A stretch of 62,912 nt of DNA, filler included, from Octopus bimaculoides (Eukaryota), in NCBI RefSeq assembly GCF_001194135.2. It is 5 parts of 5 records of this genome, joined end to end, with 100 filler letters (N's around TTAATTAATTAA, not from the genome) between each part and the next. Parts side by side here need not be neighbours in the genome. Positions count along the whole stretch, not along the records: positions 1 to 31,613 come from NC_068992.1; positions 31,714 to 52,688 come from NC_068983.1; positions 52,789 to 58,954 come from NC_069001.1; positions 59,055 to 61,703 come from NC_069005.1; positions 61,804 to 62,912 come from NC_068981.1. The stretch is one strand, 5' to 3'. A program made the translations under genes and the position numbers. Below the pieces are notes generated by a model. It did no database searches and was not told the origin of the DNA. It saw only the letters and a program-made list of their open reading frames with translations. Numbering within the stretch: the first letter of the stretch is position 1; each line of letters starts with the position of its first letter. Shown in pieces: positions 1,104-62,856 of this stretch.

Positions 1104-1142
1104 GAGAAATAACCGGTTTCGTATTTTATTTTCAAATTTCTC
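1104..1142 (-). ncRNA. Minimal type-I hammerhead ribozyme-like motif (U3:A8 core)
   Basis: Minus strand reads GAGAAAU-UUGAAAA-UAAAAUAC-GAAA-CCG-GUU-AUUUCUC. Stem I is a perfect 7 bp, stem III is palindromic (ACCGGU), stem II is defective. Confidence 0.55.
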
Positions 1143-1241
1143 AAATTTCTTTACCTATATCGTATCATGTCTTCGCTATTGTGTAAATTTGATTATAAAA
1201 GTACAATTTATAAGCTTTCTAATTCGTTAACCATATACATA

Positions 1242-1514
1242 CGAGGGGCGTTCATTAAAGATTTCCCTTGATCCATTTCCCAAGGACTGGGATACATGAA
1301 ACTTGGCATAAATATTAGTACTTCTCTACATAGCCACCACCAATGGTGACACGCTTCTCCACTACCGCAGCCGTTAAAGACAAACGAATACTAGTTTGGA
1401 AAGCTGCAATTTACAACGTGACATGAAGAAACATGTATAATTATACTTGTACGACTTCTGTTTCCTGTAATTACCGAATTGGGTCAGGAGAAATCTTTAA
1501 GGAATACCCCCTCG
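1242..1514. mobile_element. Mariner-type MITE, 273 bp
   Basis: TIRs CGAGGGGCGTTCATTAAAGATTTCCCTTGATCC / GGGTCAGGAGAAATCTTTAAGGAATACCCCCTCG (about 27/34 matches); TA on both sides (1240-41, 1515-16); no ORF. Confidence 0.85.
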
Positions 1515-1739
1515 TACAAGATCCTTTTTGAGGTTCAGAATGCGTTTAAATCAAGGCACAATTATAACAAACGCCGTGCAAAATAAAACAAATCTAGATA
1601 GAATGATATTAATGAACAACTCATCTATGCTATATATGTAGATATCTCCACAAAATGAAAGAAAGATTATTCATAAATCTTAATCATCATCATCATCAAC
1701 GACCCCTAGATATTACTATCTCATGCCCTGTGATTTATA

Positions 1740-1950
1740 AGGGCGATTACTCGGTTTCCATGGCGCCTAAGTGACTGCGAAGGGGACGCCAATCCGTCAC
1801 AGGGTTTCTTATTTACTGCTGAGTTGAGTGTGACAAGGCCAGATAAAGTTTTCTTTTTTTCAATAATACAACGCACCGTCCGGTCAAGAAATGGAAACCA
1901 CGATCTTGCGATACAGCGTGCAACACCCCTAACCACTAGGCCACACGAGT
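1740..1950 (-). mobile_element. tRNA-derived SINE (old copy)
   Basis: A-box TGGCCTAGTGG on the minus strand (1933-1943) plus a B-box-like segment; body similar to the copies at 55.7-56.1 kb and 58.5 kb. Confidence 0.6.
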
Positions 1951-2234
1951 TCATAAAGCAGCATGCTGATAAAAATAACATATACATGCCATAAACGGAA
2001 TAAACATTTGACAGAAGACGTATAATAAAGACGATGGTATTTCAGGCTTCCGTTATTGGCGTTCGAATAAAATCGAACGAAAAACATTAACAGAAATAAC
2101 ATTTGTTTACTATAAAGTAGGAAGTTACACACGCCAGTAAACCTTCGCAACCTGCTGGTGCGATGATGATGGAATTAGTTGCATGAATTTTCCAAATAAA
2201 TTACAAAGAAACTCAGAAAAATATGACCAGAAAA

Positions 2235-2430
2235 GATTAGGCGGATCATGGCTATGTGCGTAAGAAGCTTCCTTTCTAAAAGCGTAGTTTCGGGTTCAAT
2301 CTCTCTGCATTGTACTTTCCACAAGTCTCTTCTCCTATCGTGTGCATTGTGACTGGATCAAGAAAACGTAAACTGCGTGGTAGTCAATCGTATAAGTGTG
2401 TGTATGTATATATATATATATATGTATGCA
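2235..2430 (+). mobile_element. tRNA-derived SINE, family with internal (TG/TA)n (old copy)
   Basis: Degenerate match to the head GGCTGTGTGGTAAG...GGTTC seen at 22.2, 44.5 and 50.15 kb, running into a TG/TA microsatellite. Confidence 0.5.
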
Positions 2431-2569
2431 TGTATATGTCACGTGCGATGGGTAAATTGTCTCCATTTTATATTTTTGATTTTGTGCATGCGCATTATTT
2501 GTTTTTGATTTTGTCGACTGCACAGTATGGTAGGGTCAGTTGAGCACCGTCTGTGAGAGAAAAAGCACC

Positions 2570-58953: not shown

Positions 58954-59879
58954 GNNNNNNNNNNNNNNNNNNNNNNNNNNNNNNNNNNNNNNNNNNNNTT
59001 AATTAATTAANNNNNNNNNNNNNNNNNNNNNNNNNNNNNNNNNNNNNNNNNNNNATATATATATATATATATATATATATACGAACTGAACCATTAGAAT
59101 TCGTGTCATATATTGATGCCCACGCACGGAAATAACTGCAATGCTGCGCAGATGCTGCTGCTGGCATTACTACTACTACTACTACTACTACTACTACTAC
59201 TACTACTACTACTACTACTACTACTACTACTACTACTGCTACTACTACTGCTACTAGAGAAATAACAACAAAAATAACAAAGACACTCGACTATCACTTT
59301 TCGAGAATCCAAACTGAACAGTTCCCGAAATGTGACAATGGTAAACTGGCTTTAAATGTATATCTTTATTTGAGAAATACTTACTTGACGTGACAAAATG
59401 CAGAAGAGCTGATACGGGACTTGTTTAAGATGAAGTAGTTTGCATAATTCCCTTAGCCTATCGACTTTTTGTTTCATTTCGTTGAGAATACTCTTGCATA
59501 CGAAATTTTTATGCAGTTTCTTTTTCCGGGAAAAAAAAAAAATATTCGTTTTAAAATAATCACGTATATACAAATGTATACTAAAAGAAAGGCAAAGCAA
59601 ACAAGCTATAGATATTCTGTCAATATCCATCATTGAACCACTAAGTTATCGGAACATAAACAAGCAGAGACTAGTTGTTCAGTGGTGGCGAAGGATAAGC
59701 ATATCAAGAAAGACACACACACGTACAAACAGACTCAAACATATACACACACATACACATACATATATATGTATACATACATATCTTCACCTAACTACAA
59801 AGTCAAGCACTTTGACATCATCTATACACTGATTGTATGTCCAATTTTGATGTATGTCCAGTTTTTCGGTGCGGTGAGG

Positions 59880-60130
59880 GTAGGTCGGGAATTTGATTAC
59901 ATCAACTTCAGTGCTCAACTGGTACTTATTTTATTGGCCTCCAAAAGAATGAACGGCAAATAGACATTGGTGGAATTCGATCTCCAGTGCTCAAACGGTA
60001 CTTATTTTATTGGCCCCCAAAATAATGAACGGCAAATAGACATTGGTAGAATTCGATCTCACAATCTAAAGCCCAAAGAAATGGCGTTACATATTGCGTC
60101 AGCTTGCTAAACTTTCTGATAGCTCAGCGC
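59880..60130 (-). mobile_element. Old CORE-type SINE with 76-bp tandem duplication of the core
   Basis: Units 59909-59984 and 59985-60060, both CAGTGCTCAA..GGTACTTATTTTATTGGCC..AATGAACGGCAAATAGACATTGGT.GAATTCGATCTC. Confidence 0.75.
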
Positions 60131-61803
60131 CCTCTGTGTACCCTAATAGCTTCAGGAAACCTGCGAAAGGAGAAATAACCGGATGTCTCCCCGAAAAGCC
60201 TCCAAACGAAATAGCTCGACGGTAAACCAACACTGGTTGGCTGATATTAATGCATCCTTGAATCTCACAACATAACCAGCAACTAAATTGAAAGAAACAC
60301 GCACGAAATGCCATCTATGAAGAGGTTGCATGGATAACAATAATGGGATTAGATTGGAAGTATGTGTGAGCAGGGAGGATTAAATGACTGGAGCATGAGT
60401 ATATAAAGAGGAACTGTATATTGGATTAGAGTAAGGGTGATTTATGAAAATAAAACGTCAAATGATGAACGCGGAAGGATGAGCTGTAAATCGAAAGCAA
60501 CAAGATTAGAACTCAGAGGGGACAAAGAAAGAAAAGACCAATATATAATGCAATTTTTGTTTATTACATACAAAAGAAGAAGGACGAAGAAAAGTTATAT
60601 GAGAAGAAAGAAATTCCAAACAAAAACAAAACGAAACATACATAATTTTAATACATTCAAGCACACGTATGTGTGTGTGTGCGCGTGTGTGCACTCAGCC
60701 ACATTTCTGTGTGTATGTATATATATATAAATTGTGGTATAGACATACATATATATCTAATTATACCAATAAAATATATCTATGTATATGTATATATCAA
60801 TGCACGTATATGTACGTGTATCTAGGTACCTATATATCTACATATCAATGTATATATGTAAATACATGAGTGTATATATATATAAATATATATATATATA
60901 TATATATGTACAATGATACAATCGAACACNNNNNNNNNNNNNNNNNNNNNNNNNNNNNNNNNNNNNNNNNNNNNNNNNNNNNNNNNNNNNNNNNNNNNNN
61001 NNNNNNNNNNNNNNNNNNNNNNNNNNNNNNNNNNNNNNNNNNNNNNNNNNNNNNNNNNNNNNNNNNNNNNNNNNNNNNNNNNNNNNNNNNNNNNNNNNNN
61101 NNNNNNNNNNNNNNNNNNNNNNNNNNNNNNNNNNNNNNNNNNNNNNNNNNNNNNNNNNNNNNNNNNNNNNNNNNNNNNNNNNNNNNNNNNNNNNNNNNNN
61201 NNNNNNNNNNNNNNNNNNNNNNNNNNNNNNNNNNNNNNNNNNNNNNNNNNNNNNNNNATATATATATATATATATATATATAAATATATAAATATATATA
61301 TATATATATATATGTACAATGATACAATCGAACACACTAATTCACACACACATGCACACACACATACGTACACACATACACTTAAACACAAGGACACATT
61401 AAACCCCTCCGCTTAACATACCCATATTAGCTCGTATTTCAACAGTTCTGTGTATACGTTCAGTAATACAATAAAGAGAGATTGACAGCTGTAAAGAAAA
61501 AAAATTTCTACATAATTACATATATGTATGTATGTGTGTATATATATATATATGTTTATATTTTAGAATCCACAATACTCCGAGCGATCAGAGTTTCTAG
61601 CAGCTATGAATAAAAAGTAATTATGTGAATACACAAATGTGTTTTCACATAGCAAAATATATGCATATTATATATATATATATATATATATATATATATA
61701 TATNNNNNNNNNNNNNNNNNNNNNNNNNNNNNNNNNNNNNNNNNNNNTTAATTAATTAANNNNNNNNNNNNNNNNNNNNNNNNNNNNNNNNNNNNNNNNN
61801 NNN

Positions 61804-61928
61804 GGCAAACAGGACACAGTCGTGTGTCGATAAGCCAGCTGGAGGAGATGTCCTCCTGGGGCTAAAAGCAACAGTAACATCCACCCCTAGGGGTCAGCCA
61901 CACTTAAGTGGCAATATACTACACTTTA
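61804..61928 (+). mobile_element. Putative pLTR-family repeat, copy 3
   Basis: CAGGACACAGTCGTGTGTCGATAAGCCAGCTGGAGGAGATGTCCTCCTGGGGCTAAAAGCAACAGTAACATCCACCCCTAGGGGTCAGCCAC. Confidence 0.75.
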
Positions 61929-62114
61929 TCGTGCAGTTACTGTTAATACTTCATTTAGAGAATTAACATTGCTTATATATATATATATATATACATGCAT
62001 ACATCGCATGAAGCATTGGACATTAAACTATATATATTTGTGTATGTATGTATATACATACACACACACGTACATACATGCATGCATACATATATACATA
62101 CATACATACATACA

Positions 62115-62400
62115 AGATGGAATGGCGAATAGTTATGAAGTTTGCTTCATAACTACGAGATCTCTGGTTTGGTCCCACTACGTGGTATCTTGAGTGAATA
62201 TCATCTTCTATAACCTCAGGTCGACCCATGGGTCGACAGAAACTGTATAGAATCCCGTCACACACTTTGTCACTCTGATTCTGTCTGAGAATTACGTTAT
62301 AGCAACACGCGTCTGTCGAATGCTCGGCTCTTGAACTACACGTTACTTCAAGGGCGGGTAATTCAGTTTATCTAACAAGTGAATCTACATTGTCGAACGA
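62115..62400 (+). mobile_element. Degenerate tRNA-derived SINE
   Basis: GAAGTTTGCTTC..GGTTTGGTCCCACTACGTGG head, GAAACTGTATAGAATCCCGTC, and a tail like that at 55.8-55.9 kb. Confidence 0.6.
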
Positions 62401-62816
62401 CAGATACGCGCGCGCGCATACGCACACACACACACACACAAAATGAAGCATGTAAGTACATGTTAGTACTTATATATATGTGTATATGTATATGTATATA
62501 TATATGCGAGTAAAAATAAATACAAAAAAGGTGGGTTTTTTTGTATGATTGTGTATAGAGGAATATATTATTTTGCTTAAAAGAGTTCCAACACTGTCTG
62601 TTTTTTATGTTTTATTTATATTCCTGCAGAACTAATGTGGGGTATAGAATATGGAATATACAATATATAATATGATATACAATATACAATATAAAATAAA
62701 ATAACATAAAAATGGATGGCACCCTGAAAGAAAGTATTGAATGTAGATGAAATATTGAGTGTTCAATATAAAGGATCAAATATATAAATATATAAATATA
62801 AATATATATATATAAA

Positions 62817-62856
62817 GGCGACTCGAGTTTCAGGGCTATTTCCCTTCGTCATGGCC
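62817..62856 (-). ncRNA. Minimal type-I hammerhead-like motif
   Basis: Minus strand reads GGC-CAUGACGA-AGGG AAAUAG CCCU-GAAA-CUCGA-GUC-GCC: 4-bp stem II, palindromic ACUCGAGU stem III, GUC site; one extra or changed base at core position 3. Confidence 0.6.

What the first reader, a model, noticed from the sequence alone, without database searches (positions are those of the whole stretch)
1104..62856. Window-wide swarm of minimal hammerhead ribozyme motifs in unrelated (TA)n- or PLE-linked mini-elements
Seen: seven type-I HHR-shaped motifs (1104, 26372, 44014, 44207, 51470, 58070, 62817), about one per 9 kb. Each has a different stem I and stem II; most have a self-complementary stem III (ACCGGU, ACGU, ACACGUGU, ACUAGU, ACUCGAGU). 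They sit in short islands next to (TA)n or just 3' of PLE coding remnants. Established: Penelope-like elements carry minimal type-I HHRs with palindromic stem III that are thought to cleave as dimers, and HHR-bearing non-autonomous retrozymes produce small circular RNAs in some animals. Inference: octopus may host many distinct TA-targeting PLE-derived, ribozyme-processed mini-retroelements (a retrozyme-like system).
Basis: partly seen in the sequence, partly recalled or inferred. Interest (0 to 1): 0.78.

Follow-up and report, generated by a model that had tools for sequence, protein, structure and literature searches.

The report
Penelope-type hammerhead tails at TA repeats
Seven hammerhead-ribozyme-shaped motifs sit just upstream of TA microsatellites in this stretch of (likely octopus) DNA; they are most likely leftover tail ends of several Penelope-type jumping-gene families, a known pattern, but one abundant family carries a fixed change in the catalytic core that is predicted to cripple cleavage.

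Summary
The seven motifs are real as a set: three have intact cores (51470, 58070, 1104; score >=8: 3 observed, 0.19 expected, 0 of 403 shuffles); four carry one defect each; five have palindromic helix III. All seven have (TA)n or a TA-flanked gap within 200 nt on their 3' side (background 16%); two lie downstream of confirmed Penelope-like (PLE) coding remnants. This is the published picture of PLE hammerheads (Cervera and de la Pena 2014): many families, mostly single truncated copies. The scan noted the same in another genome (e1-7882047). A retrozyme system is not shown: no tandem copies here, and no cleavage ends or circle junctions in three RNA runs (a weak test). Two families were checked against public reads. 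58070 is not minimal: its family has an extended, Schistosoma-type hammerhead with a U3:A8 core. 44207 belongs to a very abundant family with U fixed at core position 6, while the two freely variable hammerhead positions (7, 17) are its only common variants. That family is a natural test of whether PLE hammerheads need to cleave. Verdict: new variants of a known kind; moderate interest.

The parts
1104..1142 (-). Type I hammerhead-shaped motif, U3:A8 core intact, 7-bp helix I, no helix II, palindromic helix III; (TA)n 170 nt to its 3' side
25522..25865 (+). Broken C-terminal GIY-YIG endonuclease of an RT + GIY-YIG (Penelope-like) element
   Evidence: tblastn E 6e-11 to 7e-9; full-length homologues carry Pfam RVT_1 and GIY-YIG
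26370..26410 (+). Decayed hammerhead-shaped motif (G12 lost, helix III not palindromic), 505 nt after the endonuclease remnant, 78 nt before (TA)n
44010..44055 (-). Hammerhead-shaped motif with U4C and non-palindromic helix III, in an island of about 80 nt between two (TA)n runs (43941-43980, 44062-44092); helix I continues 8 bp past a bulge
44209..44244 (+). Minimal hammerhead-shaped motif with U at core position 6; member of a very abundant family that continues 3' in other copies; joined here to a fragment of a different repeat (44094-44185)
51467..51546 (-). Hammerhead with perfect core, 7-bp helix I, 47-nt helix II region, 8-nt palindromic helix III; best score in the window
51652..52612 (-). 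Broken Penelope-like reverse transcriptase, ending about 30 codons after motif C; the hammerhead follows 105 nt later on the same strand (thumb and endonuclease missing)
   Evidence: E 3e-50 to RT + GIY-YIG proteins
58053..58290 (+). 5'-truncated copy of a structured multi-copy element: extended type I hammerhead (58069-58111, U3:A8 core, predicted cleavage after 58105) followed by hairpins and a short TA run
   Evidence: (z -3.6, 0 of 200 shuffles)
58775..58954 (-). Sibling sharing the 3' hairpin module of the 58070 element, ending at (TA)15; 5' end cut by an assembly gap
61804..61945 (+). Second sibling of the same 3' module, starting at an assembly gap
62816..62857 (-). Minimal hammerhead with a 1-nt insertion after C3, 4-bp helix II, 8-nt palindromic helix III, ending 6 nt before (TA)n

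Best explanation
The seven motifs are type I hammerhead-shaped sequences lying 5' of TA microsatellites, most likely the surviving 3' ends of truncated copies of several Penelope-like (PLE) retrotransposon families and their non-coding derivatives. Mechanism: a PLE carries its hammerhead in the terminal repeat near its 3' end (literature). Its GIY-YIG endonuclease would nick a (TA)n run and reverse transcription would start at the element's 3' end and usually stop early (inferred), which leaves hammerhead plus 0-200 nt of tail against TA (shown: 7 of 7). In a source element transcribed as a tandem, two hammerheads would pair through the helix III palindrome and cut the precursor (literature; pairing computed, cleavage not shown). 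Dispersed single copies have no partner and decay; they would be silent passengers in host transcripts. The 44207 family likely spread after its core changed to U6, so it either needs no cleavage or cleaves slowly.
For: 3' bias to TA: median 47 nt vs 816 for random sites, while 5 of 7 have no TA within 300 nt on the 5' side. Two motifs lie on the same strand downstream of confirmed PLE coding remnants. Helix III palindromes pair between copies at -1.7 to -10.7 kcal/mol, whereas no motif gives a stable monomer hairpin. The published consensus (U-rich flank, CUGANGAH, G10.1-C11.1, palindrome, NUH) fits 44207 except at position 6; U3:A8 cores like those of 1104, 26372 and 58070 are listed for Schistosoma PLE hammerheads. 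That paper reports many heterogeneous families, mostly single, probably truncated PLEs. (TA)n is marked as a preferred PLE target, and hammerheads as near the 3' ends, in Craig et al. 2021. PLEs are an annotated, partly recent repeat class in Octopus vulgaris. RNA reads cross both tested sites smoothly in both directions.
Against: No coding PLE was linked to 5 of 7 motifs, including both families laid on reads. The 58070 family has a canonical extended hammerhead, the form that Cervera and de la Pena 2020 tie to retrozymes rather than to metazoan PLEs. Three motifs score at shuffle level. No whole genome was held, so no family was followed to an autonomous parent; 5 of 7 motifs were not checked for copy number.
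Confidence: 0.7

Rival explanations
1. The 58070 family is a true non-LTR retrozyme: source copies are tandem, the extended hammerhead cuts them into unit RNAs that circularise and are re-inserted by PLE proteins; the window holds a truncated monomer.
For: Extended helix I with a UAC bulge and a CAAAUA loop II in family reads (loose ends and 58090 C>T at 83% of DNA depth in run X2), matching the Schistosoma tertiary motif; fold z -3.6; the upstream loose end is complementary to 58146-58157 of the family, closing a long stem; 2 of the 15 joints shown are 'goes back' joints in single DNA contigs. A 2026 preprint argues that retrozymes derive from PLE terminal repeats and often occur as monomers, so this rival grades into the best explanation.
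Against: No tandem copy in the window; no RNA joint or pile-up at the cleavage site in 321 and 340 reads; 25-28 reads per million; the 3' module is shared with siblings that differ 5' and end at (TA)n.
Confidence: 0.17
2. The two abundant non-coding families are SINE-like elements moved by a non-PLE retrotransposon that also inserts at TA runs; their hammerhead shapes are inherited relics.
For: No PLE coding sequence was tied to either family; the 44207 core is predicted to be crippled; SINEs and unclassified short repeats are very abundant in octopus.
Against: The 44207 motif matches the PLE minimal-hammerhead consensus in flank, bulge, G10.1-C11.1 and palindrome; its common variants fall on hammerhead-tolerant positions. 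No tRNA-like head was looked for in the full elements.
Confidence: 0.08
3. Most of the seven are chance matches in AT-rich, microsatellite-dense DNA.
For: Three score 5-5.5, where shuffles give 3.84 sites; 7 unlisted sites score as high; the descriptor was tuned afterwards; Rfam finds nothing.
Against: Scores 9-13 are nearly absent from 403 shuffles; family reads keep the core or vary at tolerant positions; 3' TA bias. Chance remains possible for 26372, 44014 or 1104 singly.
Confidence: 0.05

Closest known systems
Minimal hammerheads of metazoan Penelope-like elements (Cervera and de la Pena 2014, PMC4209133)
   Same: Type I, short helix I, palindromic helix III, many heterogeneous families per genome, mostly single copies, U3:A8 variant, molluscs (Lottia, Crassostrea) included.
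   Different: Octopus is not in the searched supplement. No U6 core is listed there (one supplementary file could not be searched). The 58070 family has a canonical 6-bp/4-bp extended architecture.
Non-LTR retrozymes of animals (Cervera and de la Pena 2020, PMC7229834; Li, Clavereau and Pollet 2026, 10.64898/2026.07.22.740005)
   Same: Short non-coding structured unit with a canonical type I hammerhead (58070 family only); proposed PLE origin; monomers occur.
   Different: Defined by tandem 150-450 bp repeats and circular RNA; neither was seen here.
Schistosoma mansoni full-length hammerhead (as described in PMC2632901)
   Same: CAAAUA loop II and a UAC-ending bulge in helix I, with U first on the opposite strand.
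   Different: U3:A8 core in the 58070 family; the window's own copy has drifted in both loop and bulge.
Natural core variants of hammerheads (Perreault et al. 2011, PMC3088659)
   Same: U3:A8 covariation, U4C and a position-6 change (A6C, under 0.1 per min) are known.
   Different: A6U was not found in the passages searched, and the A6C case is a single phage locus, not an abundant repeat family.
C-terminal-endonuclease PLEs with a Cys-rich linker (Neptune/Nematis type, Craig et al. 2021, PMC8557442)
   Same: [quoted passage not shown]
   Different: No tree was built, so the clade is by motif only.

Membership tests
PLE minimal hammerheads | Conserved core (CUGANGA or U3:A8, GAAA, NUH) | tested here: inconclusive
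   Met by 3 of 7 copies; kept in 58070 family reads; not met by the 44207 family, U6 fixed; four families not checked
PLE minimal hammerheads | Palindromic, unstable helix III suited to dimers | tested here: met
   5 of 7 exact palindromes; no stable monomer hairpin in any
PLE minimal hammerheads | Unpaired base after A9 and G10.1-C11.1 pair | tested here: inconclusive
   Both present in 44207; 58070 has no extra base and G-U in this copy (G-C in family loose ends); others decayed or ambiguous
PLE minimal hammerheads | Located in the terminal repeat of a PLE (3' of RT + GIY-YIG ORF) | tested here: inconclusive
   Same strand, downstream of PLE remnants for 2 of 7; not shown for 5 of 7
PLE minimal hammerheads | Weak self-cleavage as dimer, none as monomer | not testable with these tools
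   Needs in vitro assay
Non-LTR retrozymes | Tandem 150-450 bp units, each with a hammerhead | tested here: not met
   0 of 7 in tandem in the window; genome-wide unknown, 2 of 15 shown DNA joints go back in the 58070 family
Non-LTR retrozymes | Canonical hammerhead with loop 1-loop 2 tertiary motif | tested here: met
   58070 family only, from family letters against the published Schistosoma loops; 1 of 7
Non-LTR retrozymes | Abundant linear and circular unit RNAs | tested here: inconclusive
Non-LTR retrozymes | Target site duplications | not tested
   TA runs and assembly gaps hide them
Rfam hammerhead families | Score at or above gathering threshold | tested here: not met
   0 hits in the window; none at E<=10 around 58070

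The most novel reading that the evidence does not exclude
The 44207 family is one of the most abundant short repeats of this genome and was kept in hammerhead shape by selection after its core changed to U6: it either cleaves through a non-canonical core (perhaps only as a dimer or with a protein) or uses the fold without cleaving, as a recognition signal for PLE proteins. Alongside it, the 58070 family is a cephalopod retrozyme with an extended U3:A8 hammerhead.
Probability: 0.2. Interest if true: 0.7.

Novelty: new variant of a known kind. Interest (0 to 1): 0.4.

Why it matters
The swarm itself is expected: hammerheads at PLE ends are massive in animal genomes. What PLE hammerheads do is still open (Craig et al. 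2021 call their function unclear and note that elements without them spread well). A very abundant family with a fixed core change predicted to block fast cleavage, yet varying mainly where hammerheads tolerate change, gives a direct natural test of 'cleavage needed' against 'fold only'. The 58070 family is a ready candidate for a cephalopod retrozyme; my paper searches found no such report.

Tried and rejected
Whole-genome search: no genome held. First graded scan (204 shuffles, helix II up to 19 nt) put 51470 at noise level; that was an artefact of the length limit and was replaced. Rfam: 0 hits at gathering; the E-value scan returned 249 matches, the 150 shown being microsatellite matches to miRNA/snoRNA models. 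Pfam on 8 remnant peptides: none. Word-based protein searches with the 25573 and 673-984 peptides: none; the 25573 peptide was then placed by the HMMER search. The remnant at 421-984 looks PLE-like by eye but matched nothing. No RNA holder was listed for 57800-58270; this is no evidence either way. Pattern scans: 44207-family motif in metagenome contigs 0; 58070-family motif in viral contigs 0; generic U3:A8 extended pattern gave 28 metagenome loci, 0 of 28 with full helices I and II, so chance matches. An alternative register for 44207 (core starting at 44216, U3.G8) was rejected: its U4 would be 44217, which is G or C in 38% of DNA depth, and helix I does not form. Strand-blind TA proximity was weaker (P 0.004-0.02 for (TA)4-6, 0.11 for (TA)8). 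Lunse et al. 2016 on PLE hammerhead dimers could not be read; it may list core variants, including position 6. Earlier-finding look-ups by sequence and place returned nothing.
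Full report
Setting. The window is microsatellite-rich animal DNA with 9,128 N. No genome is held.

Observation. All seven motifs are present. A strict descriptor with a short helix II passes only 58070. A graded descriptor (helix II region up to 60 nt, at most one core defect; tuned after I had seen the motifs) ranks 51467-51546(-) 13, 58069-58111(+) 11, 1104-1142(-) 9, 62816-62857(-) 7, 26370 and 44209 5.5, 44010 5. 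Against 403 local dinucleotide shuffles: 3 sites at >=8 vs 0.19 (0 of 403), 6 at >=7 vs 0.58 (0 of 403), 14 at >=5 vs 3.84 (1 of 403). Seven unlisted sites score 5.5-7.5, so the three weakest listed motifs are not established by score. My first scan missed the true core of 51470 because of a length limit. Five of seven helix III segments are exact palindromes that pair between two copies (-1.7 to -10.7 kcal/mol); none of the seven gives a stable monomer hairpin. Rfam finds none.

Context. Measured from the predicted cleavage site, all 7 have (TA)4+ or a TA-flanked gap within 200 nt on the 3' side (random sites 16%; median 47 vs 816 nt, P 5e-5); without gaps 6 of 7 (P 0.002); with (TA)5+, 6 of 7 or 5 of 7. 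On the 5' side 5 of 7 have none within 300 nt (one of these runs off the window). Of 12 unlisted hits, 4 meet the 200-nt mark. 25522-25865(+) is a broken C-terminal GIY-YIG of RT + GIY-YIG proteins (42 hits at E<=0.001; Pfam on homologues; tblastn E 6e-11); motif 26372 follows 505 nt later on the same strand, then TA. 51652-52612(-) is a broken PLE reverse transcriptase (9 hits among 103 candidates); motif 51470 follows 105 nt later, so this copy is internally deleted (inferred). The remnant at 421-984 matched nothing and is antisense to motif 1104.

Family of 58070 (57800-58270 on RNA runs X21, X22 and DNA runs X2, X13, 80% likeness). Depth rises from about 52 (flank) to 33,000-67,000 over the hammerhead and 1.1 million over the 3' module in X2; the element begins at about 58053 here and other copies extend further 5'. 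Summed contig depth is not a copy number, and overlaps between short contigs inflate it (my inference), so I claim only 'multi-copy'. Loose-end consensuses keep the U3:A8 core with position 7 varying, helix II of four G-C pairs, and the helix III palindrome. No core position is among the 40 differences shown; 27 more were not shown. Common variants repair pairs that the window copy has lost (58109, 58114-58116) and restore a CAAAUA loop II (58090, 83% in X2); RNA loose ends show a UAC bulge 6 bp from the core. Variants are counted per site, so compensation on one molecule is inferred. The Schistosoma hammerhead has the same loop II and a bulge ending in UAC (PMC2632901, passages). The motif is therefore an extended, canonical-type hammerhead. 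58045-58275 folds at z -3.6 (0 of 200 shuffles). Two siblings in the window share only the 3' module (one folds at z -1.8). RNA: 321 of 12.9 million and 340 of 12.0 million reads, equal in both directions, no start or end pile-ups, no joint at the cleavage site.

Family of 44207 (44130-44278 on X21, X23, X2, X13). Depth peaks at 5.8 million in X2, 3.7 times the neighbouring repeat fragment and about 10^5 times the single-copy flank; again an upper-side hint, and the window holds only one copy in 54 kb of called bases. The table of differences is complete at the 10% level. No A is listed at 44216, so U6 is fixed. Within the 28 positions 44213-44240, only two reach 10% in the DNA runs: 44217 (position 7: G 25%, C 13% in X2) and 44240 (position 17: A 28%, C 16%; no G listed). 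These are the two positions a hammerhead leaves free; by hand, the chance that both fall among the 7 unconstrained positions is 21/378, and on exactly these two 1/378 (post hoc, and subfamilies are not independent). 44209 T>C (93%) restores a C-G pair in helix I. The family continues 3' in other copies and the neighbouring repeat continues differently, so the join is local. RNA: 4,025 of 12.9 million and 3,227 of 11.5 million reads on the stretch (both repeats together), smooth across 44240, no pile-ups. Changes at position 6 lower activity (A6C under 0.1 per min, PMC3088659, passages; low activity of CUGA-turn mutants other than the 3-8 swap, PMC9901934, passages), so slow or no cleavage is predicted.

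Mechanism. Shown: motif shapes, palindromes, 3' TA bias, PLE remnants upstream of two motifs, two multi-copy families, RNA read-through. From the literature: PLEs carry hammerheads in their terminal repeats, active weakly and only as dimers (PMC4209133, parts 1-2 of 4 read plus supplement searches; review PMC6765202, passages); (TA)n is a preferred target (PMC8557442, passages). Inferred: nicking at TA, 3'-primed reverse transcription with early stops, decay of partnerless copies, and PLE parentage of the five motifs without a coding remnant.

Comparison and novelty. The swarm is a new instance of the 2014 result; that paper's supplement lists Lottia and Crassostrea, and U3:A8 cores, but no octopus and no U6 core (one file not searchable). 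Retrozymes need tandem units and circles (PMC7229834, passages and section 13; 2026 preprint, part 1 of 5 and passages); neither was seen. The giant squid genome paper counts 235 Rfam hammerheads (PMC6962438, passage). Octopus repeat papers list PLEs; a 2026 annotation has no mention of ribozymes (PMC13282606; PMC8967140; passages). Searches for octopus or cephalopod with hammerhead and for U6 cores (listings only) found no description of either family; most subscription papers and Repbase/Dfam were not searchable, and Lunse et al. 2016 was not held, so absence from print is not established.

Verdict. Real motifs, mostly ordinary PLE tails (0.7). The retrozyme reading survives only for the 58070 family (0.17). 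The piece worth an experiment is the abundant U6 family. Novelty: new variant of a known kind. Interest 0.4.

Noticed in passing
window 58937-58954 (-): The sibling of the 58070 element starts at an assembly gap with a 6-nt palindrome, UA and an arm like helix I of the family: possibly the 3' half of an eighth hammerhead cut by the gap.
   Followed up: partly
window 58099: In RNA runs X21 and X22, 24 and 10 reads carry a 5-nt duplication of the helix III palindrome; one DNA contig of X13 also does.
   Followed up: no
window 44224: 466 and 613 RNA reads share one loose end (agreement 0.99) joined at this place: probably one well-expressed host transcript holding a truncated copy of the 44207 family.
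   Followed up: no
window 17175-17400 (+) and 21829-22053 (-): Two 95% identical 226-bp copies of an unidentified repeat.
   Followed up: no
window 50735-51012: 278-bp self-inverted element, 82% identical arms, MITE-like or fold-back.
   Followed up: no
window 33711-33897: 48-bp unit repeated 3.9 times, purine-rich.
   Followed up: no
window 10878-11719 (+), 39048-41260 (+): By eye, a broken mariner-type transposase and a broken LINE endonuclease/reverse transcriptase; names recalled, not searched.
   Followed up: no
window 24171-24205 (+), 24766-24814 (+): Unlisted hammerhead-shaped hits (scores 6.5 and 7.5, A3:U8), each 178 nt 5' of a TA run; AT-rich, may be chance.
   Followed up: partly
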